From contig JAXGXQ010000002.1 in the NCBI GenBank assembly GCA_040772685.1, positions 48,798-112,797 of the forward strand: DNA of 64,000 nt. Reading direction: 5' to 3'. Position numbers and translations under genes: made by a program. Within the stretch, counting starts at the first letter, position 1, and every line of letters starts with the position of its first letter. This stretch comes from Clostridia bacterium. Lineage in GTDB: Bacteria; Bacillota; Clostridia; Saccharofermentanales; UBA5734. The notes under the pieces are model-generated. The model saw only the letters and a program-made list of their open reading frames with translations, was not told the DNA's origin and did no database searches. Positions 5,625-58,121 of this stretch are shown here, piece by piece.

Positions 5625-5651
5625 GTTTAGTTCTAATATATTAGTTCAAAC

Positions 5652-9165: not shown

Positions 9166-9228
9166 AGTGTAAAATAGTAAAAAGTACAGAAATAGACCAA
9201 CGCTACGAAAATAATAGGAGGTTCGATC

Positions 9229-10113: not shown

Positions 10114-10191
10114 ATTGCACAGTAAAATTTGCTGAAAAGCAAGACAGGACTGGAGCTGAATAACTCCAGCCTGAAGGCACAGGAGGAATCT

Positions 10192-10974
10192 ATGTATAAA
10201 CTTGATGGCAGAATTGCAATTGTTACAGGCGGTGCCCGTGGTCTGGGTCAGGCTATGGCGGAACGCCTCGGCAAAGAAGGCGCAACTGTAATCATCGCGG
10301 ATATTGACACTGAGTCAATGGAAAAAACCGTTGCAGCCATGAACGCGGCTGGTTCTAAAGCAGAGGGTTACCAGATAGACCTTACCAAGACAAGCGAAAT
10401 TGACGTCATGATCGACAAAGTCGTCGCCGATCACGGCCGGATTGATATTCTGATCAACAACGCCGGTATCAATATTCGCCAATGGGCGACCGAGTACAAA
10501 GAAGAAGACTACGATTTCCTGATGGCACTCAACCTTAAGTCTTATTATTTCGCCAGCAGAGCAGCTGCACGTTATTTCAAAAAGCAGGGCGGCGGTGTAA
10601 TTGTTTGTACTTCTTCCGGCAACTCCGAGCGCTTCACCACCAAGCGCACACCTTACTGCATCTCCAAGGCCGCAGTAAATGGTCTCGTTGCAGCCTTAGG
10701 TAACGAGCTTGGCCGCTTCAACATCCGAGTCAACGCAGTGGCACCGGGTTACATTTACACTGACATGGTGCGCCAGGGTATTGCTGAAGGCATCATTGAT
10801 GAACAAGCGATCATGTCGGTACTGCCGAATAAACGCTTCCTCGAAGCCAGTGAAATTGCCAATGCAGTTGTCTTCCTCGCTTCAGATGAGGCCAGTGGCA
10901 TCAACGCTCAAACCCTTTTCGTAGATGGCGGCTGGAACAAAAATGGTCTGCCGGAAGCAAAGGATTACAAATAA
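10192..10974 (+). CDS. SDR family oxidoreductase
   Basis: TGGARGLG, NNAG, YCISK; SD aggagg before ATG 10192. Confidence 0.9.
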   Translation: MYKLDGRIAIVTGGARGLGQAMAERLGKEGATVIIADIDTESMEKTVAAMNAAGSKAEGYQIDLTKTSEIDVMIDKVVADHGRIDILINNAGINIRQWATEYKEEDYDFLMALNLKSYYFASRAAARYFKKQGGGVIVCTSSGNSERFTTKRTPYCISKAAVNGLVAALGNELGRFNIRVNAVAPGYIYTDMVRQGIAEGIIDEQAIMSVLPNKRFLEASEIANAVVFLASDEASGINAQTLFVDGGWNKNGLPEAKDYK

Positions 10975-11003
10975 ACTAACTGCAAAACAGTATACACAAG
11001 TAA

Positions 11004-11047
11004 AACGGCCATCGCACTTTGAAGTGTGATGGCCGTTCAGTTTGTTT
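11004..11047. terminator. Probably bidirectional terminator between convergent genes
   Basis: aacggccatcgcactt / aagtgtgatggccgtt 16-bp stem. Confidence 0.75.
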
Positions 11048-11093
11048 CAGGTGATGGGAATCCGCATGCTGTTTAAGCTCAGCGCTTACAGGC

Positions 11094-12512: not shown

Positions 12513-12700
12513 ATTTCTCTCTCCTGTCAGCATTTTAGTGGTGGTTAAATAAGAACATTACTGTACAAGTTTATCAATGTATTAAGAAATTTCAAATAGT
12601 TTATTACAAAACCAGGCATTACTTAGCCGATTCGTCAAGATCACCATTTAATTCCGGATATTAGTGTGCGGATTAAGGATGTAAACAGCAAAAAAGCGAC

Positions 12701-12735
12701 AAAAAAGCTGCAGCTATTGAATGAGCCGCAGCTTT
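12701..12735 (-). terminator. Terminator of the nfeD-floA operon
   Basis: Minus strand aaagctgcggct..agctgcagc followed by T6. Confidence 0.7.
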
Positions 12736-12774
12736 CAGATGTAAAATTTTTGTTAGGAATTTCTTCCTCTGTTT

Positions 12775-13410
12775 TTAGAAATTTCTTCTGCCGCGTCCGC
12801 GTCTGCGGCTGACAGGCCGCCCCAGAACTTCACTCCAGATTACACCCTGAACTAAAGGATTGCGTTGTTGCAGATCTTGCAGTGCCCGCGGGATAACCAT
12901 CTCTCCCCCGGCGTCGTCCCACCAAAGCATGCTTGCGCTTTCGCCAATGTTAAGATTGGACAAAGCTGAAAGACCTGAAGGATCTGATTCATAAGTGGTA
13001 ATGCTTGTGTGTACTGGACTGAAGCTGTCAACCGGCGATGGCCCCTCCTGTCCAACGACATCAGTATTTGCGGTTGAAGTGTAGCTATCCTGAGGGCGTA
13101 TGTCTTGAGGCGAAACAGGCTCCATATAAACCCGGTCGTCCTCAATTGAACCCTCATATCCACTTGTTCTGTCCACTACTACTGACTGATTGCCAGACAT
13201 GTAAAGGTCTCTATCTGCAGGCTCCTGCCATTGCGGTTGCTGAGCTTGCGGCGCTCCTCGGACTTCAGCCCTTGCCTGTTGCTGCCTGGATTGCAGAATA
13301 TCGGCCAGCGTCGGGTTTTTACCGCTTTCACTCTGCTCCAAAGCTTCTTCAAACTTGCGCAGCGCGTCTTCGAAGCTGGCAATCTTGCCGAAAAAATCTT
13401 TATCAGCCAT
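12775..13410 (-). CDS. Hypothetical protein, YqfB-like partner of FloA
   Basis: C-terminal LVQGVIWSEVLGRPVSRR motif; directly downstream of floA. Confidence 0.7.
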   Translation of the reverse strand: MADKDFFGKIASFEDALRKFEEALEQSESGKNPTLADILQSRQQQARAEVRGAPQAQQPQWQEPADRDLYMSGNQSVVVDRTSGYEGSIEDDRVYMEPVSPQDIRPQDSYTSTANTDVVGQEGPSPVDSFSPVHTSITTYESDPSGLSALSNLNIGESASMLWWDDAGGEMVIPRALQDLQQRNPLVQGVIWSEVLGRPVSRRRGRGRRNF

Positions 13411-13424
13411 GCTTGTTTCTCCGC

Positions 13425-14423
13425 TTATCTGGGCTTCTCGGGAGTTGCTTCGCCTTTACTTGAATCGGCGATGGAATTACGCATCTGCGTATCGGAAACA
13501 ACATTCTGCAGATTGTAATAATCCATAGCTCCCAGATTACCTTCGCGCAGGGCCTGTGCCAGTGCCCGCGGCACATCGGCCTCGGCCTCGACAACCTTGG
13601 CGCGCATTTCGATAACACTTGCCTTCATTTCCTGTTCGAGGGCAACAGCCATGGCTCGGCGTTCTTCAGCCTTGGCCTGGGCAATGCGTTTATCTGCTTC
13701 AGCCTGGTCTGTCTGCAACTGGGCACCGACATTACGACCGACGTCAACATCAGCTATGTCAATGGACAGGATTTCAAAGGCCGTACCGGAATCCAGGCCT
13801 TTGGCCAGAACGGTATCAGAGATGCGATCAGGATTTTCCAGCACTTCTTTATGCGAAAGCGCCGAACCAATTGTAGTTACAATACCTTCGCCAACGCGGG
13901 CAATAATTGTCTGCTCACCGGCACCACCGACCAGGCGGTCAATATTGGCACGTACCGTAACCCTTGCTTTGGCTTTCAGTTCAATGCCGTCCTTGGCGAT
14001 CGCAGCGATCAGAGGAGTTTCAATGACCCGCGGATTTACGCTCATGCGTACTGCTTCCAGAACATCACGGCCTGCCAGGTCAATAGCTGCAGCCCGTTCA
14101 AATTCCAGCGGGATTTCAGCTCTCTGGGCGGCGATCAAAGCGTTGACTACCTTGTCAACATCACCACCGGCCAGGTAATGGGCTTCCAACTGATTGATGT
14201 TGAGATCCAGACCTGCCTTGGTTGCTTTGATCATCGGGTTAACAATTCTGGAAGGCACAACCCGGCGCAAACGCATGCCGATCAGGTTCAGGATGCCGAC
14301 TTTAACGTCGGCGGCAGCTGCCGATATCCACAATCCTAAAGGAACAAAGGTGAGGAAGATAGAAAGGAAGGTGATTATGGCGACAATAATTACGGCATAG
14401 AGTAGTAGTTGCTGTGGCTGCAT
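13425..14423 (-). CDS. floA: Flotillin-like protein FloA (YqfA)
   Basis: [45 protein letters not shown]. Confidence 0.95.
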
Positions 14424-14517
14424 GGTTCATCCTCCGTGATTCATTATTAATTATTGTGTGCGAATTTGGTTACCCGACCAGTTGTTTGATCCGGGCAATT
14501 ATTATAGTCCTGAGCAG

Positions 14518-15105
14518 TTAATTCTGTTCAGGTTCTGCAACATCAGGCTCAGAATCATCAGCTGTTGCCACAACAACTCGGTTGCCGGTAACTTCGATTA
14601 TTCTGACCTTGGTGCCGCGGCGGATAAAACTGCCTTGCGTTACTACATCCAGGCGCTCGCCGTCGAGATCGACAACACCTGAAGGACGCAAATCACTTGA
14701 AGCGGTACCTGTCTGCCCAACGAGAGCGCTTTTATCCTCGCTGGAGCGGTAGCCTTTATCTTTACTGGACTTAAGATGAAGGATCATATTACGTGCCAGG
14801 CGGCCTTTACGGGCTGAGCGCAGCAAGAGCAGGATCATGATTGAGACCAGTACAATCAGAATCAGCACCAGGGCGATAGCTTCCAGAGGGGAGCCTGCTG
14901 TTAAAATGATACCAATCACTAACAACACAACACCTGTGCCTCCTGCCAAGCCAAATCCCGGGGTAAACATTTCAACAACAAGCAGAATCACTCCGGCGAC
15001 CAGTAAAACAATCTCCAGAGGCTGCAGGCGGTCTAAATAGCTAAAAAACTCAGGAGTGCGCACAATCGAACCGGCTGCTGGAATCAAGACTGAGAAAATA
15101 TTCAT
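14518..15105 (-). CDS. NfeD family membrane protein (no protease domain)
   Basis: VEMFTPGFGLAG TM region and a C-terminal OB fold (LRPSG..DVVT.G.FI..G..V). Confidence 0.88.
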   Translation of the reverse strand: MNIFSVLIPAAGSIVRTPEFFSYLDRLQPLEIVLLVAGVILLVVEMFTPGFGLAGGTGVVLLVIGIILTAGSPLEAIALVLILIVLVSIMILLLLRSARKGRLARNMILHLKSSKDKGYRSSEDKSALVGQTGTASSDLRPSGVVDLDGERLDVVTQGSFIRRGTKVRIIEVTGNRVVVATADDSEPDVAEPEQN

Positions 15106-45244: not shown

Positions 45245-46210
45245 ATGATCGAAAGAGAAAGACTGATCCAAATTTACGCAACAATGAACGATATCCGGAG
45301 GTTTGAAGAAAAGGCGCTTAGCCTGTTTGAAGAAAACAAGCTCCGCGGCTCGGTTCACCTCTACATCGGCGAGGAAGCAATCGCCGCCACCGTCTGTTCG
45401 CTCCTCAGCGACAAAGACTATATTTCCAGCACCCATCGTGGCCATGGGCATGCCATTGCCAAAGGTGCGCGGCTGGACAGGGCCATGGCTGAGCTGATGG
45501 GCAAAGCGACCGGTTACTGCAAAGGCCGCGGCGGGTCAATGCACATAGCTGATTTCACCAAGGGTAATCTAGGCGCCAACGCCATAGTCGGCGGCGGCAT
45601 TCCGATTGCTGTCGGCGCTGCTCTGGCTACAAAAATGCGCGGCGGCAATGAAGTGACAGTGGCTTTCTTTGGTGACGGTGCTTCCAACGAAGGCACCTTC
45701 CACGAAGCGATCAATCTGGCTGCTGTTTGGGACCTGCCGATTATTTTTGTCTGTGAAAACAACCTTTACGGCATATCCTGCCATATCAGTGAAAGCACAT
45801 CTGTGGTCGATATCGGCACTGAAAGGGCAGGCGCTTACGGTATCCCCGGCTATTCAATTGACGGTAACGATGTTTTTGCGATTGACGAAACCATGCAAAA
45901 GGCGATTGCCCACGCCAAAGCCGGCAAAGGCCCCTCACTGGTTGAATGCAAAACATATCGGCATGTTGGCCACTGGACGGGTGACCCACAGGTTTACCGC
46001 ACTCGTCAGGAAGTGGAAGAATGGAAACAGAAGGATCCGATCAAGCGCTTACGCGAATATTTGCTGGCAAACAAGGTCCTGACTGAGGCAGAAATTGCTG
46101 AATTGGAACAAAAGAGTGTTGACGCGGTTGAGGCTGCAACTAAGTTTGCACTTGAGAGCCCCGAGCCGGACCCCGCTCACGTTATGGACGACGTCTTTTT
46201 CGTTGGTTAA
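45245..46210 (+). CDS. E1 alpha subunit, acetoin/pyruvate dehydrogenase family (AcoA-like), cluster B
   Basis: HLYIGEEA, STHRGHGH, GRGGSMH, FGDGASNEG..ENN, TYR..GH. Confidence 0.92.
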   Translation: MIERERLIQIYATMNDIRRFEEKALSLFEENKLRGSVHLYIGEEAIAATVCSLLSDKDYISSTHRGHGHAIAKGARLDRAMAELMGKATGYCKGRGGSMHIADFTKGNLGANAIVGGGIPIAVGAALATKMRGGNEVTVAFFGDGASNEGTFHEAINLAAVWDLPIIFVCENNLYGISCHISESTSVVDIGTERAGAYGIPGYSIDGNDVFAIDETMQKAIAHAKAGKGPSLVECKTYRHVGHWTGDPQVYRTRQEVEEWKQKDPIKRLREYLLANKVLTEAEIAELEQKSVDAVEAATKFALESPEPDPAHVMDDVFFVG

Positions 46211-46231
46211 GCAGTCAGGAGGAAATTAATT

Positions 46232-47212
46232 ATGAGTATCAAAACATATTCCCAGGCCATTCGTGATTGCATTGCTGAAGAAATGCGCAGGGACGAAACT
46301 GTATTCATCATGGGTGAGGATATTGCCAAACAGGGCGGCATTTTCGGCTGCACACGCGGGCTGCTCGATGAATTCGGTGCCGAGCGGGTGCGGATTACTC
46401 CGATTTCTGAAGCTGGCTTTGTCGGTGCCGGTGTTGGCGCTGCCTGTGCCGGCATGCGTCCAATAGTTGAACTGATGTACATGGACTTTACCTATGTGGC
46501 CATGGACCAGCTGCTTAATCAGGCCGCTAAAACCCGCTATGTGTTTGGCGGTCAGGCCAAAGTTCCCCTGGTTATCCGCGGGCAGCAGGGTGTGGGCCGT
46601 GGCAACGCTGCCACGCATTCGCAGTGCACCGAAGGCATCTTCATGCATATTCCGGGCATGAAAGTGGCAATGCCTTCCAGCCCTGCCGATGCTGCCGGTT
46701 TGCTGCGCACCGCTATCCGCGACGACAACCCGATTATGTTCTATGAACACAAAGCGCTTTATAACATGAAGGGTGAAGTGCCGGACAACCCTGATTTTGC
46801 TGTTCCATTCGGGCAAGCAAATATTTTGCGCGCAGGTAATGACGTCACCATTATCGGCACTCACTTGTACGTCCAGCAGGCTATGAACGCAGCTGCTGAG
46901 CTGGAAAAAGAAGGTATCAGCTGCGAAGTAATTGACCCGCGCACTCTGGTACCACTCGACCTCGACACCATGGTCGCGTCTGTCAAAAAGACAGGACGCT
47001 GTGTGCTAGTACATGAAGCACACCGCAATGCCGGCCCCGGTGCTGAAATCGCTGCCTCCATTACTGAACAGGCATTTAAGTATTTAGATGCCCCTGTCGC
47101 CCGCCTGGGCGCAAAAGCCTGCCCGCTGCCGTTTAACCTCGGCCTGGAAAACGCCGTTGTACCGCAGGAAGCAGACATTCTGCAGGCAGTCCGTTCCGTT
47201 TTGTACCGCTGA
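46232..47212 (+). CDS. E1 beta subunit (AcoB-like), cluster B
   Basis: MGEDI, TPISE, GMRPIVE, HSQ, EHK, IDPRTL. Confidence 0.93.
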   Translation: MSIKTYSQAIRDCIAEEMRRDETVFIMGEDIAKQGGIFGCTRGLLDEFGAERVRITPISEAGFVGAGVGAACAGMRPIVELMYMDFTYVAMDQLLNQAAKTRYVFGGQAKVPLVIRGQQGVGRGNAATHSQCTEGIFMHIPGMKVAMPSSPADAAGLLRTAIRDDNPIMFYEHKALYNMKGEVPDNPDFAVPFGQANILRAGNDVTIIGTHLYVQQAMNAAAELEKEGISCEVIDPRTLVPLDLDTMVASVKKTGRCVLVHEAHRNAGPGAEIAASITEQAFKYLDAPVARLGAKACPLPFNLGLENAVVPQEADILQAVRSVLYR

Positions 47213-47242
47213 CTCGCCGTTTAGTAAGGAGGCAGAAAACCA

Positions 47243-48640
47243 ATGGCAACTAAAGTTATTATGCCCAAGCAGGGCTTGCAGATGACCGAAGGAACTATCA
47301 CTCGCTGGCTGGTTTCTGAAGGCGGACAAGCCGAACAGGATCAGCCACTGTTTGAAATGGAAACAGATAAGCTTACTATCGAAATTATGGCTCCAGCCAG
47401 CGGCACGCTGCTCAAGGTGCTTTACGCAGAAGGCGAAACCATTCCCATTACTGAAACCATCGCGATTATTGGCGAACCCGGCGAAGACATCGCGCCCCTT
47501 CTGACTGATTCTAAAGCAGCTACAGGTGCCAGCGAAACTGAAGCTGAAGCTGCAACTGAACCGGCAGCTGCCGACAGCACGGCCTTGCCTGCCGCAGCCG
47601 TGACTGGTGCCGCTGCTGAAGCAGCCGCGCCGGCAGCAGGAGAAAAGGTGTACGTTACACCGCGCGCCCGCACCAAGGCTGAGGAAGCCGGAATCGATCC
47701 GAACCGGATTGCAGGCAGCGGACCGGAGGGGCTGGTTATTGAACGTGATATTCTGGCTGCTGCGTCCCTGGCGCCAAAGGCTACACCTGTTGCCCGCCGT
47801 ATCGCCGAGCTGAACCAAGTGGATCTGGCAGCTGTCGCAGGTGGCGGACCGGGCGGCAAAATCATGAAAGCCGATGTTCAGGCAGTTCTGTCCCACCCTG
47901 AAGCCCAACAGACAACTGTAGCTGCGGCTGCAGCAACTGGCGGCGACCGCGGCACACGCGCTGCGCGTGGGGAAAGGCTGATGCCGATGTCCGGCATGCG
48001 CAAGGTTATTGCCGAGCGGATGTTTACCAGCCTGCAGACAATGGCCCAGGCCAACCATCGCATGAAAGTTGACATGAGCGAAATTATCCGTTTCCGGGAA
48101 AAGCTCAAGGCCGCGGATATCAAAGTATCGTTTACGGACATTATTGTCCGCTGTGTCACCATGGCCCTCAAGGATTTCCCGATTGTCAACGCCTCACTGA
48201 CTGAACAAGGTATCCTGTACAAGGATTATGTCAACATGGGTATAGCGGTCGCGGTTGAAAACGGCTTACTGGTACCGGTTATCAAGGATGCTGACCTGAT
48301 GAATCTGGCAGAAATCGCTGCGGCTTCAGCAGAGCTGATTGCAAAAGCCCAAAATGGTACGCTGGCGCCTGACGATTACACAGGCGGCACCTTTACGATT
48401 ACCAATTTGGGTATGTTTGACATCGACGAATTCACCGCTATTGTCAACCCGCCTGAGAGCGCCATTCTGGCAATTGGCAAAATCAACCGGGTTCCTGTTG
48501 CGGTTGGCGAAGAAGTTGTCATCCGACCCGTCATGACGCTCAGCCTGAGCTACGATCACCGTACGATCGATGGCGCGCCGGCAGCCCGGTTCCTGCAGCG
48601 GGTGAAGCAAATTTTGCAAAACCCATACCTGCTGATTTAA
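47243..48640 (+). CDS. Dihydrolipoamide acyltransferase (E2), cluster B, with two subunit-binding domains
   Basis: METDKL lipoyl site; TPRAR..GSGPEG and ATPVAR..GGGPGGKI; DHRTIDG. Confidence 0.93.
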   Translation: MATKVIMPKQGLQMTEGTITRWLVSEGGQAEQDQPLFEMETDKLTIEIMAPASGTLLKVLYAEGETIPITETIAIIGEPGEDIAPLLTDSKAATGASETEAEAATEPAAADSTALPAAAVTGAAAEAAAPAAGEKVYVTPRARTKAEEAGIDPNRIAGSGPEGLVIERDILAAASLAPKATPVARRIAELNQVDLAAVAGGGPGGKIMKADVQAVLSHPEAQQTTVAAAAATGGDRGTRAARGERLMPMSGMRKVIAERMFTSLQTMAQANHRMKVDMSEIIRFREKLKAADIKVSFTDIIVRCVTMALKDFPIVNASLTEQGILYKDYVNMGIAVAVENGLLVPVIKDADLMNLAEIAAASAELIAKAQNGTLAPDDYTGGTFTITNLGMFDIDEFTAIVNPPESAILAIGKINRVPVAVGEEVVIRPVMTLSLSYDHRTIDGAPAARFLQRVKQILQNPYLLI

Positions 48641-48648
48641 ATTCAACT

Positions 48649-48686
48649 CCTGCCTGACATAGCACATTCGACAGGCAGGGTTTTTT
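48649..48686 (+). terminator. Intrinsic terminator-like hairpin between E2 and E3
   Basis: cctgcctg / caggcagg stem followed by gT6. Confidence 0.65.
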
Positions 48687-48729
48687 CTGCAAACACAAGA
48701 TTATTTTACGTAACGGAAGGAAAGTGAAC

Positions 48730-50139
48730 ATGGAGCAGTTATTTGACCTGGCGATTCTCGGCGGTGGCCCCGGGGGCTATGTTGCCGCAATCCGCGCCGG
48801 CCAGCTGGGGTTGAAAACCGTTTTAATTGAAGCGGATCTGCTGGGCGGCACCTGCCTTAATCGTGGTTGTATCCCTACGAAATCGTTGTTGCATGCTGCG
48901 GAAGTTTACCAAAATGCAGTGCATAGCGAAACCTTCGGGATCAATACTGGAGAAGTAAGCTTTGATTACGCTCGCATTGCTGCCCGCAAGGATAAAGTGG
49001 TTGATCAACTGCGCCGCGGTGTAAATCAGCTGGTCAAGTCCAACGGCGGCACAATTCTCCACGGCTACGGCACAATTATTGATGCCGGGACAATTTCAGT
49101 CAGCGGCAAAGATGCCGGTACTGTTAAGGCAAATAAGATTATCATCGCTACCGGGTCTAAACCGTTTATTCCGCCTGTCCCAGGTGCCGACGGCTCGCGT
49201 GTTCTGGACAGCAATAAACTGCTGGCCCTTACAGAGTGCCCTGCCAGCCTGACAATTATTGGCGGCGGTGTAATTGGTATGGAGTTTGCTTCGCTGTTTC
49301 AGCAGCTGAATGTGCCGGTGACTGTTCTGGAAATGATGCCGGAGATCCTGCCGGAAGTTGATATTGAAGTGGCCCGGATTTTACGCAAATCGCTTCAGCG
49401 TCAGGGCGCGGCAATTTTTACCAGCGCGAAAGTCACAGCTATCGAATCCGGTGAACATAACGCGACTTGCAGTTTTGAACTGGCGGGCGAAACCAAAACA
49501 GTCACCAGTGAACTGGTTTTGATCGCCATTGGCCGCCGGCCGCAATCCGCAGATATCGGTTTGGAAAATATTGGCATAGAAACTGTAAAGGGAGCCATTC
49601 CGGTCAACGATCAGATGGAGACTACAGTGCCGGGAGTATACGCAGTCGGTGATGTCACCGGCAAAATTATGCTGGCGCATGTCGCTACGGAGCAGGGAAC
49701 TGTGGCAGCTGAAAACGCCGCCGGCGGCAAGGCCAGGATGAAATACAACATAGTGCCGAACTGTATCTATACTTACCCGGAAATTGCCTGCATTGGCATT
49801 TCGGAAGAAAAGGCAAAAAGTCAAGGCATCGCAACCAAAGTCGGACGTTTTCCTGTGGCTGCCAATGGCAAGGCTATGCTGGCTAACGACACAGAAGGTG
49901 TCTGCAAACTGGTTAGCGATGCCGCCACCGGCGAGTTACTGGGCGCCCAGATAATCGGCCCCAAGGCAACCGAGCTGATTTCCGGGCTGGGAGTTTCAAT
50001 GACTCTGGAAACAACAATAGCTGAAATCGGCGCAACTATTCACCCGCATCCCACAGTAAGTGAAATGATCGCGGAAGCCGCGCTGGATACAGCCAATCGT
50101 GCTCTGCACTACTTTCGACGGCAGCATAAGCAGGAGTAA
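48730..50139 (+). CDS. lpdA: Dihydrolipoyl dehydrogenase (E3), cluster B
   Basis: GGGPGG, GGTCLNRGCIPTK, GGGVIG, HPHPTVSE. Confidence 0.95.
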   Translation: MEQLFDLAILGGGPGGYVAAIRAGQLGLKTVLIEADLLGGTCLNRGCIPTKSLLHAAEVYQNAVHSETFGINTGEVSFDYARIAARKDKVVDQLRRGVNQLVKSNGGTILHGYGTIIDAGTISVSGKDAGTVKANKIIIATGSKPFIPPVPGADGSRVLDSNKLLALTECPASLTIIGGGVIGMEFASLFQQLNVPVTVLEMMPEILPEVDIEVARILRKSLQRQGAAIFTSAKVTAIESGEHNATCSFELAGETKTVTSELVLIAIGRRPQSADIGLENIGIETVKGAIPVNDQMETTVPGVYAVGDVTGKIMLAHVATEQGTVAAENAAGGKARMKYNIVPNCIYTYPEIACIGISEEKAKSQGIATKVGRFPVAANGKAMLANDTEGVCKLVSDAATGELLGAQIIGPKATELISGLGVSMTLETTIAEIGATIHPHPTVSEMIAEAALDTANRALHYFRRQHKQE

Positions 50140-52102: not shown

Positions 52103-52191
52103 TGAATCAAATATTTAGCAGGCTATTCGAATTTAGCCAAACTGATACTATAAGGGAACCAGTCGAATTACTGTAAATTAATAGCCCGGTC

Positions 52192-52232
52192 AATGCCGTT
52201 TGTAAATTCTCTTTTTACAAACGGCATTTTTT
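52192..52232 (+). terminator. Intrinsic terminator
   Basis: aatgccgtttgtaaa / tttacaaacggcatt stem followed by a T run. Confidence 0.75.
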
Positions 52233-52311
52233 ATGGAATAATGGCACTACTGTATGGCTCTTTTTATCAGCTGGTACAGACTTTACTTCCCCTTGATCCC
52301 TTAACTTTAAC

Positions 52312-52339
52312 AGCATTTGTAAAGAAATTTACAAATGCT
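52312..52339. promoter_or_regulatory. Perfect 12-4-12 palindrome just upstream of the CotH-operon SD
   Basis: AGCATTTGTAAA-GAAA-TTTACAAATGCT. Confidence 0.6.
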
Positions 52340-52355
52340 CAGTTGGAGCTCTGAA

Positions 52356-55300
52356 ATGCGCAAATCGACTGGTAGTCGTCTGATAGCAATACTGCTCTGT
52401 TGTTCTGTGTTGCTTTTGGCCGGCTGTGATTATATTAAGACTAACTGGCAGACCCCTATGGGCCCGTCATTACCGACAACGGAAGAAAACGGCACTGACA
52501 GCACAAAAGAGCCTGTTCCTTCCCAGTTGCTGATTACCGAAGTAATGAGCAATAACTCCGGCTCTTTGATTCTGGGCGAAAACTTCACTCCGGATTGGAT
52601 TGAAATTTATAATTCCGGTTCAACGCCAGTCAGCCTGACAGGCTATATGCTTTCCGACAGTGCCCGCAATCCAGATAAATTTGTATTTAATACAGGTACA
52701 CTTGCCGCCGGTGCTTATCTTTTGGTTTATGCCGACGGGAATGTCAGCGATATCGGCAGTGAGCCGCTTGTTGCCGCCGCTGCAGCGCTGGGCAGGGAAG
52801 TCGCACCATTTGGGATCGACAGATCTGGCGAGGAACTGTTGCTCACCGGACCGGACGGTAATGTAGCCGACCAGTGGAACGTGCCTGAAATGCCCGCTGA
52901 TATCTCTTATGGCCGTAATGGCCCCAACCCTGACCCAAACAGCCCTAAAGTATTTTTTGCCAACCCGACACCGGGAACCCCAAACAGCACTGACGGCAAA
53001 GAAAAAGCGGAAGAAGCCATTGAACCGGCTGTTACGACTTTGCTGATTAACGAATATTGCAGTTCGAACTCAACATTTTATGACGAACGCGGCGATTATC
53101 CTGATTGGGTTGAGCTATACAATGCCGGAAGGGAAACTGTTGATTTAACAGGCTACATGTTTTCTGACAACCTTTCCCGGATCGATAAATGGACATTCCC
53201 CGAAACTAAAATTGAACCGAAAGCCTATTTGTTATTAATGCTTGTGGGTACCGATCCACTCCGGCCTGCGCCTGCACCCGTTCCACAGACAGGCGGCGAA
53301 GGCGAAAGGGTTGAACGGCGATATGTCGATTTTAAATTGGGGCCGGAGGACGAACAGCTTTTGCTTAGCGATACGCGCGGCCGCCCTGTAGCTGTCGCGA
53401 GCGTTGAAGACTTGCCGTCTAACGTTTCCCATGGGCGTCTGCCGGATAATCCGGAAACCTGGGCTTACTTCCCCCGCCCAACCCCGGGCGAAGCCAATAC
53501 AACCGCCAGCTTTTTCAGCCTGGAAGCTGCCTATTCTCTTGAAGCTAAAACTGTCCTGATTAATGAAGTTTTCGCACAGGATGTTCTAAACCCGGCAACA
53601 CCGGCAAAGGACTGGATTGAACTCTATAATAATACGGATAAACCGCTGGATCTCAACGGCTACGGCCTCAGCGACGATCCGAAGCAGCCTTTCCTGCAAG
53701 TGCTTAATGAGCAGGTTATCAATCCGAAATCAACGCTCGTGATTGAGCCGGATAAATTCGGCATCTCCCCTGATGGCGAAACAATTGTCCTGACCAATCC
53801 CGACGGTTTTGTCGAGGATGCTTTCTCCACGGGGTATCTGAGACCGGGAAACAGCAGCGGCCGCCAATTAACGACGGGAAATGCCGCCGGCGGACTAGAC
53901 CGGTTTTTTTATGTAACCCCCACCCGCGGCAAACTCAACAACACAAATGCATATCTAACCTATTCAGAAATTCCCCGGATTATTGCCATCAAAGCTGCTG
54001 ACTCCGTTGTGGTCGACAACTTGTATATTGATCAGGCGGTCAAAGTGTCATTGACTGTCTCAACGCCTGATACCATCATCTATTACACACTGGACGGAAG
54101 TGAACCGACAACTGCTTCCAGCCGATATGAGGACCCGCTTACAGTCGATAAATCGCTGGTGGTCAAGGCTATTGCACAGCAAAAGGATAATTTACTCAGC
54201 GATACAGCTGTGCGTACATTTCTAAAAGAAAAACCCCATACATTGCCGGTGGTAAGTGTCAGCGGCAACCCTGCAGCAATTCTGGGCAACAACGGGATAC
54301 TGATAAACTCTGAAAATTACAGCGAAGTACCGGCGAATTTTTCTTTTTACGAAGCCGACGGCGTACTGGGCATCAGCGCCAACGCCGGTCTGGAACTGCA
54401 GGGGCAGTACAGTAGGAAGGAAGCCCAGAAATCACTTGAAGTTAAATTCCGAGGCGGCTATGAACGCAGCGACGTGACATATCCGTTTTTCCCTGACTAT
54501 GACGTGAATACTTTCCGGCGGCTTGTGCTGCGCACCTCCGGCCAGGACTGGCAATACACCAAGGTGCGGGATGCCTTTATGACCCGGGTTGTTCAGGAAC
54601 ATGTCGAAGTTGACATGATGGCTGTGCGCAACTGCGTGCTCTATGTCAACGGCAAATATCATGGCCTATATGAAGTGCGCGAAAAAATCGACAAGTTCTA
54701 TATTGAATCACATTATGGCGTTGATCCAGATGAACTGGATTTAATTAAGGGTACTGGCATTGTTATGGCCGGCGACACCAAGGATTATCGGGATCTGCTG
54801 GCATATGTCCGGGCAAATGATATGCGCAATCAAGCTGCCTACCAGAAAGTAATGAACTGGATTGACGCCGAAAGCCTGATGGATTTTGTCATTGTCGAAG
54901 CCTTCTTCAGCAATGCCGACTCGGGCAATAAAAAGTTCTGGCGCCAGCGGTCTGAAGATGGTAAATGGCGTTGGAGTGTTTTCGACCTGGATTGGGCTCT
55001 GTTTCCGACCAGTTTCAAAAATAACCGCCTAAAGGGTGATTTGCTTGACCCAGCCGGGCATGGTACTGGTAACTTCTTCCACACAGTAATCCAAGTCAAA
55101 CTGATGCAGAATCCGGATTTTGAGGAAAGGTTTATTAATCGGTACGCCAATTTCCTCAACACAATTTTTACAACCGAAAATTTGCTCAAGATTCTGGACG
55201 AAAACATCGCAATTGTAGAACCGGAAATGGAACGCCAAATCGCCCGCTGGGGCAAACCTGTCAGCATGGCTGGCTGGCGGAATAACGTCGCGACTCTGCG

Positions 55301-55406
55301 CAGGGTAATATCTGAAATCCGTAAAGTTCAGATTAATTACCTGCAGAATGACTTCAACATCAGCCAGGCCCGCATGAAGCAGCTGTTTCCGCAGGACTTC
55401 CCATGA
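52356..55406 (+). CDS. Lipoprotein with three lamin-tail domains, an FN3-associated/chitobiase-like domain and a C-terminal CotH kinase domain
   Basis: Lipobox LAGC (Cys24); three I[TN]E..DW[IV]E[IL]YN..L.GY..SD repeats; IYYTLDGSEPT; CotH motifs KSLEVKF, VRD, NG.YHGLY..REK, NADSGN, W..FDLD. Confidence 0.88.
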   Translation: MRKSTGSRLIAILLCCSVLLLAGCDYIKTNWQTPMGPSLPTTEENGTDSTKEPVPSQLLITEVMSNNSGSLILGENFTPDWIEIYNSGSTPVSLTGYMLSDSARNPDKFVFNTGTLAAGAYLLVYADGNVSDIGSEPLVAAAAALGREVAPFGIDRSGEELLLTGPDGNVADQWNVPEMPADISYGRNGPNPDPNSPKVFFANPTPGTPNSTDGKEKAEEAIEPAVTTLLINEYCSSNSTFYDERGDYPDWVELYNAGRETVDLTGYMFSDNLSRIDKWTFPETKIEPKAYLLLMLVGTDPLRPAPAPVPQTGGEGERVERRYVDFKLGPEDEQLLLSDTRGRPVAVASVEDLPSNVSHGRLPDNPETWAYFPRPTPGEANTTASFFSLEAAYSLEAKTVLINEVFAQDVLNPATPAKDWIELYNNTDKPLDLNGYGLSDDPKQPFLQVLNEQVINPKSTLVIEPDKFGISPDGETIVLTNPDGFVEDAFSTGYLRPGNSSGRQLTTGNAAGGLDRFFYVTPTRGKLNNTNAYLTYSEIPRIIAIKAADSVVVDNLYIDQAVKVSLTVSTPDTIIYYTLDGSEPTTASSRYEDPLTVDKSLVVKAIAQQKDNLLSDTAVRTFLKEKPHTLPVVSVSGNPAAILGNNGILINSENYSEVPANFSFYEADGVLGISANAGLELQGQYSRKEAQKSLEVKFRGGYERSDVTYPFFPDYDVNTFRRLVLRTSGQDWQYTKVRDAFMTRVVQEHVEVDMMAVRNCVLYVNGKYHGLYEVREKIDKFYIESHYGVDPDELDLIKGTGIVMAGDTKDYRDLLAYVRANDMRNQAAYQKVMNWIDAESLMDFVIVEAFFSNADSGNKKFWRQRSEDGKWRWSVFDLDWALFPTSFKNNRLKGDLLDPAGHGTGNFFHTVIQVKLMQNPDFEERFINRYANFLNTIFTTENLLKILDENIAIVEPEMERQIARWGKPVSMAGWRNNVATLRRVISEIRKVQINYLQNDFNISQARMKQLFPQDFP

Positions 55407-56221
55407 TCGGGCGGCGCGATATCCAGGCAGTGCCCTGCCATGAAGTCTGGCGGCACGAAGATAAGTTCCTGATCGACGAGGTGAACTTTTTTCAGCTTTA
55501 TTGGAAGCTGCGCCCGTTTATGGAAATAGACGCCAACGCAGTTGTTCCGAGTGACAGCATGCTGCCGCCGGAAAACCAGTTTCCGGGCTACCAGGTGCGC
55601 AGCCTCTACTTTGATACACCTGAACGCCATGCCTTATTTGAAAAACTGGCTGGCTTCGACCGACGTGCCAAATACCGGATCCGGATTTATAACGGCACAG
55701 ATACTGTCATAACTCTGGAAAAGAAAATTAAGCGCAATTCGTATTGCCGCAAGGAAAAAACCAGCCTTACCCGGCCCCAGATGGAAGCCCTGATTGCTGG
55801 CGATTACGACTGGCTGCCGCAAATCGGGCCGCTTGGCGAAGAATTGTATGTCGAAATGCGTACTCGCCTCATGCAACCACTGGTGCTGGTGGATTATCAC
55901 CGCATCCCGCTGATCTGGCCGGTTGATGAAATCCGCATTACCTTTGACCGCCATCTTTCAAGCGGTTTATTCCGGACAGATATTTTCGAAGATACTGCTT
56001 CCGTGCATCCGGTTCTGGCACCCGGCCAGGTAATTCTTGAAGTCAAGTACAACCATTTTCTGCCTGATTTTCTGCGCTGCCTGTTGTCCGGACCGCGCAA
56101 TGCGAGCCTGGCAGTCAGTAAATACGCGATGTGCAGCCGCGACATAACAATGTCTGCCTGGGGAGATCCGCAGGACGTTTGGGAACAGGACTGGACCTAC
56201 CCCGTCAAAGGTAATAAATAA
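55403..56221 (+). CDS. VTC (polyphosphate polymerase) domain protein, CYTH-like tunnel fold
   Basis: RHEDKF, YQVRSLYFD, RAKYRIRIY, LEKKIK, IRITFD, ILEVKY, SKY. Confidence 0.88.
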   Translation: MIGRRDIQAVPCHEVWRHEDKFLIDEVNFFQLYWKLRPFMEIDANAVVPSDSMLPPENQFPGYQVRSLYFDTPERHALFEKLAGFDRRAKYRIRIYNGTDTVITLEKKIKRNSYCRKEKTSLTRPQMEALIAGDYDWLPQIGPLGEELYVEMRTRLMQPLVLVDYHRIPLIWPVDEIRITFDRHLSSGLFRTDIFEDTASVHPVLAPGQVILEVKYNHFLPDFLRCLLSGPRNASLAVSKYAMCSRDITMSAWGDPQDVWEQDWTYPVKGNK

Positions 56222-56249
56222 CACAACCAAGTGAAAGGAAAAACGGAAA

Positions 56250-56903
56250 ATGAACGAGCTTTTTAAGCGCTTTGGCGATGTCAATGTTAACCAGCCCCTG
56301 ACTCTGGAGCGAATATTCCTGACATTCGCTGTTACCCTGGTGCTGGCGCTGGTGATGATTCTGGTCTATCGCATAACCTATCAGGGGGTATTGTTCAATA
56401 AGACTTTCACCACGGCGCTGCTGATGGTTTCAATGGTCACAGCACTGGTGATCATGCCAATCAGCTCTAACATCGTGCTTTCACTCGGCATGGTTGGTGC
56501 CTTGTCCATTGTCCGTTTCCGCACCGCACTTAAAGATCCGCTGGATATTGTCTACATGTTCTGGGGGATCGCGATCGGCCTTACTGCCGGTGCCGCGTTT
56601 TACCTTCTGGCCATAATCGGCACATTTGTCCTTGCTTTAGTCATGATCTGCGTGGCACTGTTCCCCCAGTTCAGCAGCCGCAAAGCCTATCTGCTGGTTA
56701 TCCGCTACAATCGGGAATTCAGGGGCGAACTGCAAAAGCTGATCCCGCCGTATCGTGTTAAAAGCAAAACCGTCACCCCGCAAAGCGTCGAACTCATTGT
56801 CGAGCTTTCGATCAAGAACCAGGAAAGCCGTTTCCTTGAGCGCCTGCAACAGATGGAAGGCATAATTTCCGCCTCGCTGGTCCGCTACAGCGGCGACTTT
56901 TAA
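56250..56903 (+). CDS. DUF4956 family membrane protein
   Basis: ISSNIVLSLGMVGALSIVRFRTALKDPLD..F.....GL..G; about four TMs plus a small C-terminal soluble domain. Confidence 0.9.
   Translation: MNELFKRFGDVNVNQPLTLERIFLTFAVTLVLALVMILVYRITYQGVLFNKTFTTALLMVSMVTALVIMPISSNIVLSLGMVGALSIVRFRTALKDPLDIVYMFWGIAIGLTAGAAFYLLAIIGTFVLALVMICVALFPQFSSRKAYLLVIRYNREFRGELQKLIPPYRVKSKTVTPQSVELIVELSIKNQESRFLERLQQMEGIISASLVRYSGDF

Positions 56904-56975: not shown

Positions 56976-58121
<1,146 letters not shown>

What the first reader, a model, noticed from the sequence alone, without database searches (positions are those of the whole stretch)
52356..56903. Lipoprotein CotH kinase + VTC polyphosphate-polymerase domain + DUF4956: candidate polyP-fuelled cell-surface phosphorylation system
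Seen: three tightly linked co-directional genes (ATGA overlap, then a 28-nt gap). They encode an outward-anchored lipoprotein with three lamin-tail domains and a CotH kinase domain, a soluble VTC-domain protein with intact basic tunnel motifs and no TM, and a small multi-TM DUF4956 protein. Established: yeast Vtc4 makes polyP from ATP and threads it through a channel of small TM domains, and CotH is an atypical protein kinase acting outside the cytoplasm. Inference: VTC plus DUF4956 form a split bacterial analogue of the VTC synthase/channel, delivering polyP or another phosphoryl donor to an extracytoplasmic kinase that has no access to cytosolic ATP. The lamin-tail domains could recognise substrate or cell wall. 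I recall this gene trio recurring in bacteria but know of no biochemical characterisation.
Basis: partly seen in the sequence, partly recalled or inferred. Interest (0 to 1): 0.85.

Follow-up and report, generated by a model that had tools for sequence, protein, structure and literature searches.

The report
CotH, VTC and DUF4956 surface operon
A three-gene operon joins a yeast-like polyphosphate-polymerase enzyme and a small membrane protein to a kinase-like protein anchored on the cell surface; the trio is widespread and of unknown function, and may carry phosphate polymer to the outside of the cell.

Summary
Window 52356-56903 holds three co-directional genes: a lipoprotein with three LTDs, a CHB_HEX_C domain and a CotH domain; a soluble VTC protein; and a DUF4956 membrane protein (ATGA overlap, then a 28-nt gap).

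VTC and DUF4956 are an obligate pair. Both occur in 67 of 69 and 38 of 41 genomes holding either, in two samples. A DUF4956 match lies within 3 kb of 77 of 82 VTC matches, and VTC within 1.5 kb of 80 of 80 DUF4956 loci.

CotH is the usual third gene (50 of 82; 57 of 80). One clade has a Cthe_2159 beta-helix lipoprotein there instead. The third protein nearly always carries a signal or anchor; VTC almost never does.

The VTC protein keeps all nine Vtc4 triphosphate- and Mn-binding residues, including the lysine that marks active Vtc4. DUF4956 resembles MgtC (helical membrane domain plus ACT-like domain), not the Vtc1 channel.

The trio is in print only as an uncharacterised Pel accessory set. 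Only 8 of 82 VTC matches lie near PelG. This genome has a Pel-linked copy as well as this free-standing one.

Polyphosphate export is plausible but unshown. Polyphosphate as the kinase's donor is conjecture, with some evidence against.

The parts
52192..52228 (+). Terminator-like hairpin (15-bp stem, T run) that closes the upstream DUF4332 gene unit
   Evidence: RNA-library contigs of three runs end at 52184-52189, which is a weak hint only.
52214..52242 (+). Sigma-70-like promoter match (TTTACA, 17 nt, AATAAT, with TG before the second hexamer)
   Evidence: 10 of 12 positions. The number of such matches in the region is no higher than in shuffles, so this is only a candidate.
52356..55406 (+). 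Lipoprotein gene: signal peptide, three LTDs, CHB_HEX_C, CotH (the ORF is open from 52335)
52356..52427 (+). Signal peptide ending in the lipobox L-A-G-C
   Evidence: Read directly from the translation (residues 8-31 of P0001). 53 of 54 CotH ORFs in related loci have an N-terminal hydrophobic stretch.
52518..52880 (+). Lamin-tail domain 1
   Evidence: residues 62-182.
53028..53393 (+). Lamin-tail domain 2
   Evidence: E 7.1e-11.
53547..53828 (+). Lamin-tail domain 3
   Evidence: E 2.8e-11.
54030..54197 (+). CHB_HEX_C_1 / Fn3_assoc beta-sandwich domain
   Evidence: residues 566-621, E 5.8e-17.
54393..55316 (+). CotH kinase-fold domain. D862 (codon 54918-54920) and D884 (codon 54984-54986) align with the B. 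subtilis CotH residues D228 and D251.
   Evidence: D228Q and D251A are described as inactive in PMC7821199 (passages).
55403..56221 (+). Soluble VTC (triphosphate tunnel) protein, 272 aa
56250..56903 (+). DUF4956 membrane protein, 217 aa: five predicted helices followed by an ACT-like domain

Best explanation
The operon encodes a three-part system that spans the cytoplasmic membrane. The proposed mechanism has four steps.

1. Inside the cell, the Vtc4-like tunnel enzyme (VTC) polymerises the gamma-phosphate of ATP into polyphosphate. This is inferred from conserved residues and fold; no activity was measured.

2. Its obligate partner DUF4956 is an MgtC-like protein. It has five predicted helices, an invariant basic loop (V-R-F-R-T-x-x-K-D-P) that the positive-inside rule places on the cytoplasmic face, and an ACT-like cytoplasmic domain. 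It holds the enzyme at the membrane and, probably as an oligomer, passes the chain outward. This step is inferred.

3. Outside, the lipid-anchored LTD-CotH protein acts on the emerging chain or on surface polymers. Its catalytic and metal-binding aspartates are intact, so phosphoryl transfer is plausible. It might transfer from polyP to a protein or glycan hydroxyl, or it might fix the polyP chain to the envelope. This step is inferred.

4. The genome also has PPK1, PPK2 and PPX, so the VTC pair is not needed for bulk cytoplasmic polyP and should serve a separate, vectorial role.

My odds: the three proteins form one trans-envelope functional unit, about 0.85. VTC makes polyP and DUF4956 exports it, about 0.4. 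polyP is CotH's phosphoryl donor, about 0.15.
For: Pairing by genome. In 401 genomes of the window's phylum, VTC occurs in 68 and DUF4956 in 68, with both in 67. The two singletons are weak or partial matches. In a second sample, 189 scored genomes of the phylum of G401, VTC occurs in 40, DUF4956 in 39 and both in 38.

Pairing by position. 77 of 82 VTC matches have a DUF4956 match within 3 kb, with a median gap of 169 nt between matches. Starting from DUF4956 instead, 80 of 80 loci from named species genomes have VTC within 1.5 kb. These include a Bathyarchaeota MAG, a Udaeobacter MAG, Paenibacillus and Butyrivibrio.

Control genomes. VTC and DUF4956 match the same 3 of 14 control genomes, and CotH matches those 3 plus B. 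subtilis.

Location of the parts. 53 of 54 linked CotH ORFs and 10 of 13 Cthe_2159 ORFs have an N-terminal hydrophobic signal or anchor, against 1 of 74 VTC ORFs.

VTC catalytic features. A profile of 69 VTC sequences matches Vtc4 at E 3.9e-20, better than the inactive Vtc2 (2.9e-11) and Vtc3 (3e-9). K21, R92, R94, K108, Y165, R167, E213, S239 and K240 align with Vtc4 K200, R264, R266, K281, Y359, R361, E426, S457 and K458. Eight of these are invariant and S239 is at least 90% conserved in the 69 sequences. The cryo-EM preprint names those nine as the triphosphate and Mn ligands, and names K458 as the only one that differs in Vtc2 and Vtc3 (10.1101/2023.01.27.525886, passages). The AF2 model (pLDDT 88.9) has Vtc4 as its best fold match: E 7.7e-14, TM 0.65, against 1.4e-10 for the triphosphatase YgiF.

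Other points. DUF4956 has invariant G83, R89, R91 and G110. The CotH domain matches B. cereus CotH at E 1.2e-47 and keeps D862 and D884. PPK1, PPK2 and PPX lie elsewhere in the genome. No Vtc1-type DUF202 protein was found in this 95.5%-complete genome.
Against: DUF4956 shows no sequence or fold likeness to the Vtc1/3/4 channel. Nothing here shows that it forms a pore or an oligomer.

Its nearest relatives are MgtC proteins, which the mBio paper describes as regulators that bind other membrane proteins. I did not find them described as channels.

The bacterial VTC proteins keep one glutamate (E19) of the ExExK motif that I recall as typical of tunnel hydrolases, so triphosphatase activity is not excluded. 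YgiF is a strong fold hit too.

In S. intermedius the VTC deletion is not reported to change aggregation or Pel level, while the CotH and DUF4956 deletions do (PMC12345266, passages).

CotH is missing from 12 of 67 pair-holding genomes, and 32 of 82 VTC matches have no CotH match within 5 kb. A clade uses Cthe_2159 instead. Some tandem CotH copies at Pel-type loci lack the aspartates.

The fused proteins that looked like proof of contact turned out to be recent deletion variants or likely artefacts.
Confidence: 0.4

Rival explanations
1. One reading: polyP (or another VTC product) passed out by DUF4956 is the phosphoryl donor that lets the surface CotH kinase phosphorylate proteins or glycans without ATP.
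For: CotH is outside (lipobox; 53 of 54 linked CotH ORFs have a signal or anchor), where no ATP supply is known. Its catalytic Asp and metal-binding Asp are kept. CotH is the commonest third gene: within 5 kb of 50 of 82 VTC matches and within 3 kb of 57 of 80 DUF4956 loci.
Against: A non-kinase Cthe_2159 beta-helix protein replaces CotH in a well-supported VTC clade. 12 of 67 genomes with the pair lack CotH. Deleting VTC did not copy the effect of deleting CotH in S. intermedius. B. subtilis CotH is assayed with ATP (PMC7821199, methods passage). No polyP-using member of this kinase fold turned up in my searches.
Confidence: 0.15
2. Regulatory module. DUF4956, like MgtC, binds and tunes another membrane protein, for example the neighbouring histidine kinase or a polysaccharide synthase. 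The VTC protein then acts as a sensor or hydrolase of tri- or polyphosphate that reports phosphate or energy status. CotH is a co-regulated output, not a consumer of the VTC product.
For: 16 of 72 DUF4956 proteins give sub-threshold Pfam MgtC matches. The window's copy matches NCBIfam MgtC/SapB at 3.6e-05 over residues 70-208. The ACT-like C-terminal domain resembles the MgtC C-terminal domain weakly (2lqj, rank 50). MgtC is reported to act on PhoR and the ATP synthase (as cited in PMC12345266). An OmpR-type response regulator lies within four genes of 29 of 74 VTC ORFs, together with a histidine kinase in 26. In S. intermedius the DUF4956 deletion made more Pel and the CotH deletion less.
Against: This window's locus, and the Pel-linked locus in the same genome, have no two-component system beside them. 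Full conservation of all nine Vtc4 ligand residues, including the active-subunit lysine, is more than a sensor would need. The strict one-to-one pairing with an always-exported third protein fits a transport line better.
Confidence: 0.25
3. Polyanion-matrix version. The pair exports polyP as a structural anion for the envelope or for cationic exopolysaccharide such as deacetylated Pel. The outer partner (CotH with LTDs, or Cthe_2159) binds, caps or covalently fixes the chain rather than phosphorylating many substrates.
For: The trio sits in pel operons, including this genome's second copy, which is followed by a protein with three polysaccharide deacetylase domains (PMC7112168). Related loci also hold a GT2 synthase cluster (6 loci) and a LytR_cpsA_psr cluster (4 loci). 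A kinase fold and a carbohydrate-binding beta-helix can stand in for each other, which suggests a shared ligand rather than shared chemistry.
Against: This window's copy has no polysaccharide genes around it. No polyP-binding role is known to me for LTD, CotH or Cthe_2159. CotH's catalytic residues are conserved, which argues for catalysis.
Confidence: 0.15

Closest known systems
Yeast VTC complex (Vtc4/Vtc3/Vtc1), a polyP polymerase coupled to a membrane channel
   Same: The window's VTC protein belongs to the same Pfam family. Vtc4 is its best sequence-profile match and its best fold match. It keeps all nine triphosphate and Mn ligands, including the K458 equivalent. It is always paired with a small multi-helix membrane protein that carries invariant basic residues.
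   Different: It has no SPX domain and no fused transmembrane domain. The partner membrane protein is unrelated to the three-helix Vtc1-type domain by sequence and fold, and no DUF202 was found in the genome. One glutamate of the hydrolase-type ExExK motif is kept. The product would go to the cell exterior rather than into a vacuole.
cotH / polyP-polymerase / DUF4956 accessory genes of Gram-positive pel operons (Whitfield 2020, PMC7112168; S. intermedius SIR_1594/1593/1592, mBio 2025, PMC12345266)
   Same: The same three families occur together in the same kind of tight cluster. This genome's second copy (G000:C1, locus L007) sits right after pelG, exactly as published.
   Different: The window's copy stands alone between housekeeping genes. 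Its CotH is a 1016-aa lipoprotein with three LTDs instead of a protein of about 570 aa. The mBio paper says the synteny was not found outside Pel loci. Here only 8 of 82 VTC matches lie within 15 kb of a strong PelG match.
Bacillus CotH spore-coat Ser/Thr kinase (PDB 5jd9)
   Same: Same kinase fold family: profile E 1.2e-47. The catalytic Asp and metal-binding Asp are conserved.
   Different: Spore CotH is about 360 aa. By recall, it has no signal peptide and works in the mother cell with ATP. In the phylum sample, CotH-only genomes include four with ORFs of 360-369 aa and no VTC. The window's protein is exported, lipid-anchored and multi-domain.
MgtC/SapB family membrane proteins
   Same: Similar size, a helical membrane domain followed by an ACT-like domain, and weak but repeated HMM matches.
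   Different: The matches are below the curated cut-offs. DUF4956 is strictly coupled to a VTC gene. I know of no such coupling for MgtC (recalled, not searched).
C. perfringens NELoc-2 cluster (VTC, a membrane protein annotated 'tubulin/FtsZ', CotH, chitin-synthase-like GT)
   Same: VTC genes are each followed by a cytoplasmic-membrane protein of about 225 aa, next to a CotH gene and a glycosyltransferase (PMC2879425 table).
   Different: I did not check that the 'tubulin/FtsZ' proteins are DUF4956. The pair there is duplicated around a resolvase.

Membership tests
VTC domain / Vtc4-type polyP polymerase catalytic domain | Pfam PF09359 match above the curated cut-off | tested here: met
   109.9 bits against a cut-off of 23, residues 17-244.
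VTC domain / Vtc4-type polyP polymerase catalytic domain | Triphosphate-tunnel beta-barrel fold closest to Vtc4 | tested here: met
   AF2 model with pLDDT 88.9. Foldseek top hits are Vtc4 chains (E 7.7e-14, TM 0.65). Other tunnel enzymes score weaker.
VTC domain / Vtc4-type polyP polymerase catalytic domain | Triphosphate and Mn ligands K200, R264, R266, K281, Y359, R361, E426, S457, K458, with K458 marking the active subunit | tested here: met
   K21, R92, R94, K108, Y165, R167, E213, S239 and K240 are aligned to them by HMMER. Eight are invariant and S239 is at least 90% conserved in 69 sequences. The residue list comes from 10.1101/2023.01.27.525886.
VTC domain / Vtc4-type polyP polymerase catalytic domain | Makes polyP from ATP | not testable with these tools
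   Needs an enzyme assay.
Eukaryotic VTC complex architecture | SPX domain and a Vtc1-type three-helix membrane domain forming the channel | tested here: not met
   No SPX or transmembrane segment in the VTC protein. The DUF4956 profile finds no Vtc chain at E <= 10. Its model has no Foldseek PDB hit at E <= 0.001. No DUF202 in the genome. That DUF202 is the Pfam family of the VTC membrane domain is recalled, not checked.
CotH kinase family | Pfam PF08757 match above cut-off and likeness to the solved CotH structure | tested here: met
   124.5 bits against 23.8. A profile of 41 CotH domains matches 5jd9 at E 1.2e-47.
CotH kinase family | Catalytic Asp (B. subtilis D228) and metal-binding Asp (D251) | tested here: met
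   Window D862 and D884. These columns hold Asp in 38 of 41 and 39 of 41 sequences. The mutants are inactive per PMC7821199.
CotH kinase family | Protein kinase activity and its phosphoryl donor | not testable with these tools
   Needs an assay comparing ATP with polyP.
MgtC family | Pfam PF02308 or NCBIfam MgtC/SapB match above the curated cut-off | tested here: not met
   Window copy: NCBIfam 23.5 bits against 214. 16 of 72 DUF4956 proteins give Pfam MgtC matches at E <= 0.01, the best at 1.1e-05. The one score I saw, for this genome's second copy, is below the cut-off: 24.8 bits against 31.4. A distant relationship is likely; membership is not shown.
MgtC family | C-terminal ACT-like domain | tested here: inconclusive
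   The model has a beta-alpha-beta domain at 146-212. All Foldseek hits are weak (E about 0.01-0.07) and go to ACT-type domains, including the MgtC C-terminal domain 2lqj at rank 50.
Bacterial lipoprotein | Signal peptide with a lipobox cysteine | tested here: met
   MRKSTGSRLIAILLCCSVLLLAGC, read. No dedicated predictor was available.
Pel accessory gene set (Whitfield 2020) | Contiguous with pelDEADAFG | tested here: not met
   The window copy is flanked by 2-oxoacid dehydrogenase genes, an SDR, an isochorismatase and DUF4332 upstream, and by GAPDH, HPF and PcrA downstream. The genome's other copy does meet this feature.

The most novel reading that the evidence does not exclude
Bacteria and archaea have a third polyphosphate synthase besides PPK1 and PPK2. 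It is a Vtc4-like tunnel enzyme docked on an MgtC-like membrane protein, and it extrudes polyP through the cytoplasmic membrane. Surface CotH kinases then use that polymer as an ATP-independent phosphoryl source. This would be the prokaryotic forerunner of the eukaryotic VTC catalytic subunit, with a different channel. It would also give the MgtC superfamily a first molecular activity.
Probability: 0.15. Interest if true: 0.9.

Novelty: new variant of a known kind. Interest (0 to 1): 0.62.

Why it matters
If the mechanism holds, it would answer several open questions.

- How an exported bacterial kinase obtains a phosphoryl donor.
- What non-spore CotH proteins do.
- Where the eukaryotic polyP polymerase came from.
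- What MgtC-like membrane proteins do at the molecular level.

The trio is not a Pel speciality. It is built on an obligate VTC-DUF4956 pair, found in roughly a sixth to a fifth of the genomes in the two samples. That pair carries exchangeable exported partners, and a two-component system lies nearby in about a third of the fetched loci. The VTC protein is small and has no predicted membrane segment or signal peptide, so the first decisive test is an ordinary enzyme assay.

Tried and rejected
Complex prediction of VTC with DUF4956 (alignments A1 and A2, collected) returned no verdict, with scores 0.00 and 0.00. It counts neither for nor against binding.

Fused proteins as proof of contact were examined and rejected.
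- A 'longer' search with DUF4956 listed 120 proteins. By my HMMs, 100 are DUF4956 membrane part followed by CotH, 1 is CotH followed by DUF4956, 3 are VTC followed by DUF4956, and 16 show DUF4956 only.
- I fetched 80 metagenome loci related to one fusion. They show that the fusions are in-frame deletion forms within one gut lineage. That lineage's usual layout is histidine kinase and response regulator, mostly divergent, then VTC, DUF4956 and CotH as separate genes. 15 of the 80 loci have DUF4956 and CotH in one frame, and 11 have a VTC piece and CotH in one frame.
- Of the three VTC-DUF4956 fusions I read two. One has frameshift-like junk between the domains and one has lost the S-K-Y motif.
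- One DUF4956-VTC ORF of 489 aa (L044) stands alone.
- One CotH-VTC protein of 771 aa is a single sequence.
- I therefore do not count any fusion as support.

Topology from the fusions was contradictory. The positive tail after the last helix puts CotH outside, while the core's charge pattern puts the ACT position inside. I left this open.

Other steps that led nowhere:
- phmmer of single proteins against PDB sequences found nothing for VTC or the CotH protein. Profiles were needed.
- PADLOC gave no match for any of the three proteins.
- The Atlas look-alike search for DUF4956 gave an MgtC-bearing cluster at only 0.77, which is a lead only.
- The papers that mention DUF4956 in S. mutans and B. 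thetaiotaomicron only list it in expression tables.

RNA. Contigs from four anaerobic-digester RNA libraries lie on parts of all three genes at low depth. The tool warns that this does not show transcription. No contig bridges two genes by 31 letters or more, and stretches without cover mean nothing. Excluding the possible source, 13 DNA runs from 10 studies, one of which is the source's own study, hold 86% or more of the sampled words. They are labelled digester, biogas, bioreactor or plain metagenome.

Not seen:
- Nguyen et al. 2016 (PNAS, CotH kinase) is not held. It may describe CotH gene neighbourhoods.
- Supplementary figures of PMC7112168 (S4, S5) and PMC12345266 (S6, S7) are closed. 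They may show more loci than the text says.

Rows dropped:
- For PelG I used the 15 strong matches (E <= 2e-109) and left out 7 weak rows (E >= 5.2e-7) from 5 genomes.
- For locus fetching I took 75 of the 82 VTC matches. I left out G190:C23, G256:C102, G054:C5, G304:C17 and G395, which have no DUF4956 match within 3 kb, and the two G000 matches, which I already held.
- Alignments A1 and A2 left out partial ORFs and ORFs outside 215-300 aa and 200-290 aa.
- A3 used 41 of 54 CotH domains, chosen by hand.
- The tree used 70 VTC ORFs of 200-310 aa.
- G424 and G470 were not scored by the tool.
- The overlap count for the second sample was made by eye from the two tables.

Full report
WHAT IS THERE. 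Three + strand ORFs lie at 52335-55406, 55403-56221 and 56250-56903. The first two overlap in ATGA, and 28 nt separate the second from the third. The first protein most likely starts at 52356, because GGAG lies 8-9 nt upstream. It then begins with a signal peptide ending in the lipobox L-A-G-C. Pfam finds three lamin-tail domains (residues 62-182, 232-353, 405-498), a CHB_HEX_C/Fn3_assoc domain (566-629) and a CotH domain (687-994) in it. The second protein has a VTC domain and the third a DUF4956 domain, and all are above the curated cut-offs. A strong terminator-like hairpin (52192-52228) and a promoter-like site (52214-52242) precede the first gene. The neighbours are housekeeping genes: the E1 alpha, E1 beta, E2 and E3 subunits of a 2-oxoacid dehydrogenase, an SDR, an isochorismatase and DUF4332 upstream, and GAPDH, HPF and PcrA downstream.

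THE SAME GENOME HAS A SECOND TRIO. The assembly (2.15 Mb, 11 contigs, 95.5% complete) has exactly two matches each for VTC, DUF4956 and CotH. The second set lies on contig 1, directly after a pel operon. The order is an epimerase-fused PelD-like gene, a 296-aa ORF, DUF2194, PelF and PelG. These are followed by CotH (573 aa), VTC (240 aa), DUF4956 (218 aa) and a 1237-aa protein with three polysaccharide-deacetylase domains. This is the arrangement published for streptococci, clostridia and bifidobacteria (PMC7112168, passages). The two DUF4956 copies are 33% identical, so the two trios are old paralogues or separate acquisitions.

WHAT IS IN PRINT. Whitfield et al. 2020 list cotH, a 'poly-phosphate polymerase', DUF4956 and DUF4832 as an accessory group next to pelDEADAFG, and suggest a regulatory kinase. 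The 2025 mBio paper on S. intermedius deleted the three genes. Loss of the DUF4956 gene (SIR_1592) or the CotH gene (SIR_1594) lowered aggregation in sputum medium by more than half. It also changed Pel level, up for DUF4956 and down for CotH. No such change is reported for the VTC gene (SIR_1593) in the passages I read. The authors describe SIR_1592 as an MgtC-type membrane domain plus an ACT domain, and say they could not find the three-gene synteny outside Pel loci. A 2010 paper lists VTC, membrane-protein and CotH genes in C. perfringens NELoc-2. Searches for CotH/VTC/DUF4956, DUF4956 alone, CotH with polyphosphate, and 'VTC domain' with polyphosphate and bacterial found no biochemical study. 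Nguyen et al. 2016 and all supplements could not be read.

HOW TIGHT IS THE LINKAGE.
- Window's phylum, by genome. In 401 genomes sampled evenly, VTC matched in 68, DUF4956 in 68 and CotH in 62. PelG matched strongly in 15. VTC and DUF4956 coincide in 67 genomes. The one VTC-only and the one DUF4956-only genome have weak or partial matches.
- Window's phylum, by position. Of 82 VTC matches, 77 have DUF4956 within 3 kb, 50 have CotH within 5 kb, and only 8 have PelG within 15 kb.
- Exceptions. The five without a nearby DUF4956 are two partial matches, two matches within 200 nt of a contig end, and one genome whose DUF4956 match is on another contig.
- Whole genomes. 55 of the 67 pair-holding genomes have CotH somewhere and 12 do not. 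7 genomes have CotH without VTC, four of them with ORFs of 360-369 aa, the size of spore-coat CotH.
- Second sample. In 189 scored genomes of the phylum of G401, VTC matched in 40, DUF4956 in 39 and both in 38.
- Reverse direction. Starting from DUF4956, the best 80 of at least 600 loci in named species genomes all have VTC within 1.5 kb. 57 have CotH within 3 kb and 4 have Cthe_2159 within 3 kb. They include Clostridia, Paenibacillus, Cytobacillus, Butyrivibrio, a Bathyarchaeota MAG and a Udaeobacter MAG.
- Controls. Among 14 control genomes, VTC and DUF4956 match the same three (B. thetaiotaomicron, C. glutamicum, M. acetivorans), and CotH matches those three plus B. subtilis.
- Conclusion. 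VTC plus DUF4956 is the obligate core. CotH is a frequent, exchangeable third part. The link to Pel is the exception, which contradicts the statement in the mBio paper.

WHAT ELSE TRAVELS WITH THE PAIR. I fetched 75 of the VTC loci with up to about 10 kb of flank on each side and called ORFs.
- Gene order. The commonest is VTC, DUF4956, CotH (34 of 82). The window's order, CotH, VTC, DUF4956, occurs 10 times. CotH, DUF4956, VTC occurs 5 times.
- Regulators. An OmpR-type response regulator lies within four genes of 29 of 74 VTC ORFs, with a histidine kinase as well in 26, and on the opposite strand in 18.
- Alternative partner. In 11 of 74, a protein of a cluster whose representative is Pfam Cthe_2159 (E 1.2e-98) lies within four genes, usually where CotH would be.
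- Tree. A VTC tree of 70 sequences has three well-supported groups. 17 rows hold all ten Cthe_2159-type loci. 10 rows hold long CotH proteins in DUF4956-then-VTC order. 43 rows hold the ordinary and Pel-linked CotH types. Partner type needs 19 changes on the tree against 35.9 in shuffles. The window's VTC sits on a long branch in the third group, although its CotH is 36-39% identical to four long LTD-type CotH domains from the second group. The window's operon therefore looks like a mosaic.
- Location. 53 of 54 linked CotH ORFs and 10 of 13 Cthe_2159 ORFs have an N-terminal hydrophobic signal or anchor, against 1 of 74 VTC ORFs. The system is consistently split between the inside and the outside of the membrane.

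THE VTC PROTEIN.
- Sequence. A profile of 69 sequences (A1) matches the yeast Vtc4 catalytic domain at E 3.9e-20. It matches the inactive Vtc2 and Vtc3 only at 2.9e-11 and 3e-9.
- Residues. Using the native numbering of 8i6v_E, the window's K21, R92, R94, K108, Y165, R167, E213, S239 and K240 align with K200, R264, R266, K281, Y359, R361, E426, S457 and K458. Eight are invariant and S239 is at least 90% conserved in A1.
- What those residues do. The VTC cryo-EM preprint states that exactly these residues bind the triphosphate and Mn2+. It states that mutating the eight triphosphate ligands lowers polyP. It also states that K458 is the only one replaced in Vtc2 and Vtc3.
- Fold. The AF2 model (pLDDT 88.9) is closest to Vtc4 structures (E 7.7e-14, TM 0.65). 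E. coli YgiF and other tunnel enzymes follow.
- Unresolved. At the first strand the bacterial proteins read R-x-E-x-K. That is Vtc4-like at the first position and hydrolase-like at the second, so sequence alone cannot decide between polymerase and triphosphatase.
- Context. The genome has PPK1, PPK2 and a Ppx/GppA protein elsewhere, so the pair is not its only route to polyP.

THE DUF4956 PROTEIN.
- Model. The AF2 model (pLDDT 87.5) has helices at 19-43, 51-71, 75-87, 97-114 and 118-137, then a beta-alpha-beta domain at 146-212.
- Conserved residues. In 72 sequences the invariant residues are G83, R89, R91 and G110, inside the motif S-I-V-R-F-R-T-A-I-K-D-P.
- Topology (my inference). The charges are +2 after helix 1, +3 in the R-F-R loop and +6 after helix 5. 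They fit a five-span topology with the N-terminus out, the C-terminus in, and the basic loop and ACT-like domain in the cytoplasm.
- Not Vtc1-like. Its profile finds no PDB chain below E 0.8, and no Vtc1, Vtc3 or Vtc4 chain at E <= 10. Its model has no Foldseek PDB hit at E <= 0.001. The weak hits are ACT-type domains, including the MgtC C-terminal domain, and no VTC-complex chain is listed. No DUF202 protein is found in the genome.
- MgtC-like. Weak MgtC matches recur: NCBIfam MgtC/SapB at 3.6e-05 for the window's copy, Pfam MgtC at 2.9e-05 for the second copy, and 16 of 72 family members at E <= 0.01.
- Conclusion. If DUF4956 is a conduit, it is an analogue of the yeast channel, not a homologue.

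THE CotH PROTEIN. A profile of 41 linked CotH domains matches B. cereus CotH (5jd9) at E 1.2e-47. B. subtilis D228 and D251, whose mutants are described as inactive (PMC7821199), correspond to the window's D862 and D884. The two columns hold Asp in 38 and 39 of 41 sequences. Some second copies in tandem CotH pairs at Pel-type loci lack these aspartates.

MECHANISM AND ODDS. The evidence supports a trans-envelope unit with a cytoplasmic Vtc4-like enzyme, an obligate MgtC-like membrane partner and an exported third protein. The reading I think most likely is that the pair makes polyP and hands it across the membrane, and that the outer protein works on it (about 0.4). It is weakened by the Cthe_2159 replacement, by pair-holding genomes without CotH, and by the S. 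intermedius VTC mutant. A regulatory reading modelled on MgtC and the frequent neighbouring two-component system is the main rival (about 0.25). A structural polyanion role is another (about 0.15). No computation here shows a pore, a contact or an activity.

NOVELTY. The gene set is already described, so this is not a new kind of system. New here are six points.
- The free-standing, LTD-lipoprotein form of the trio.
- The finding that the pair is obligate, with counts.
- The finding that most copies are unrelated to Pel.
- The alternative Cthe_2159 partner and the two-component link.
- The residue-level match to active Vtc4.
- The finding that DUF4956 is MgtC-like rather than Vtc1-like.

Noticed in passing
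L007 (G000:C1:72000-91000), ORFs 168-15010: The same genome has a complete Gram-positive pel operon (an epimerase-fused PelD-like gene, a 296-aa ORF, DUF2194, PelF, PelG). It is followed by a second CotH-VTC-DUF4956 trio and a 1237-aa protein with three polysaccharide-deacetylase domains plus fn3.
   Followed up: partly
L034:7431-8459, L040:10562-11608 and other Pel-type loci with two CotH genes (L039, L040, L048, L049): Pel-linked loci often carry two tandem CotH genes. In some second copies the catalytic and/or metal-binding aspartate columns are replaced, which suggests a kinase paired with a pseudokinase.
   Followed up: no
L163-L242 (metagenome contigs related to P0061): Within one gut lineage the locus occurs in several in-frame deletion forms. 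One joins the DUF4956 membrane part directly to CotH. In that form no VTC was found in 14 of 15 loci, 10 of which have more than 900 nt of upstream sequence in the fetched stretch. Another joins a piece of VTC directly to CotH with no DUF4956. The intact form also occurs. This looks like recurrent decay or variation of the operon.
   Followed up: partly
P0006-P0018 (479-586 aa), P0019: These VTC proteins carry an N-terminal extension of about 290-400 aa that matches neither my DUF4956 nor my CotH profile. One of them gives a weak second VTC-like match. P0019 combines an ABC_tran domain with VTC.
   Followed up: no
window 45245-50139: A four-gene 2-oxoacid (acetoin/pyruvate-type) dehydrogenase operon: E1 alpha, E1 beta, E2 and E3. 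It is followed by an SDR, an isochorismatase-family gene and a DUF4332 gene.
   Followed up: no
window 57057-57383 (GAPDH gene): Three RNA libraries each hold a very deep contig (depth about 880-1900) that matches only short conserved ends here and replaces 280 nt with 238 other letters. It is most likely the GAPDH transcript of another, abundant organism.
   Followed up: no
L044 (G394:C1), ORF 9525-10994 on the - strand: A single 489-aa ORF holds a full DUF4956 (residues 25-198) followed by VTC (289-472). It is the only such fusion among the fetched loci, and a lost stop codon or a sequencing error is not excluded.
   Followed up: partly
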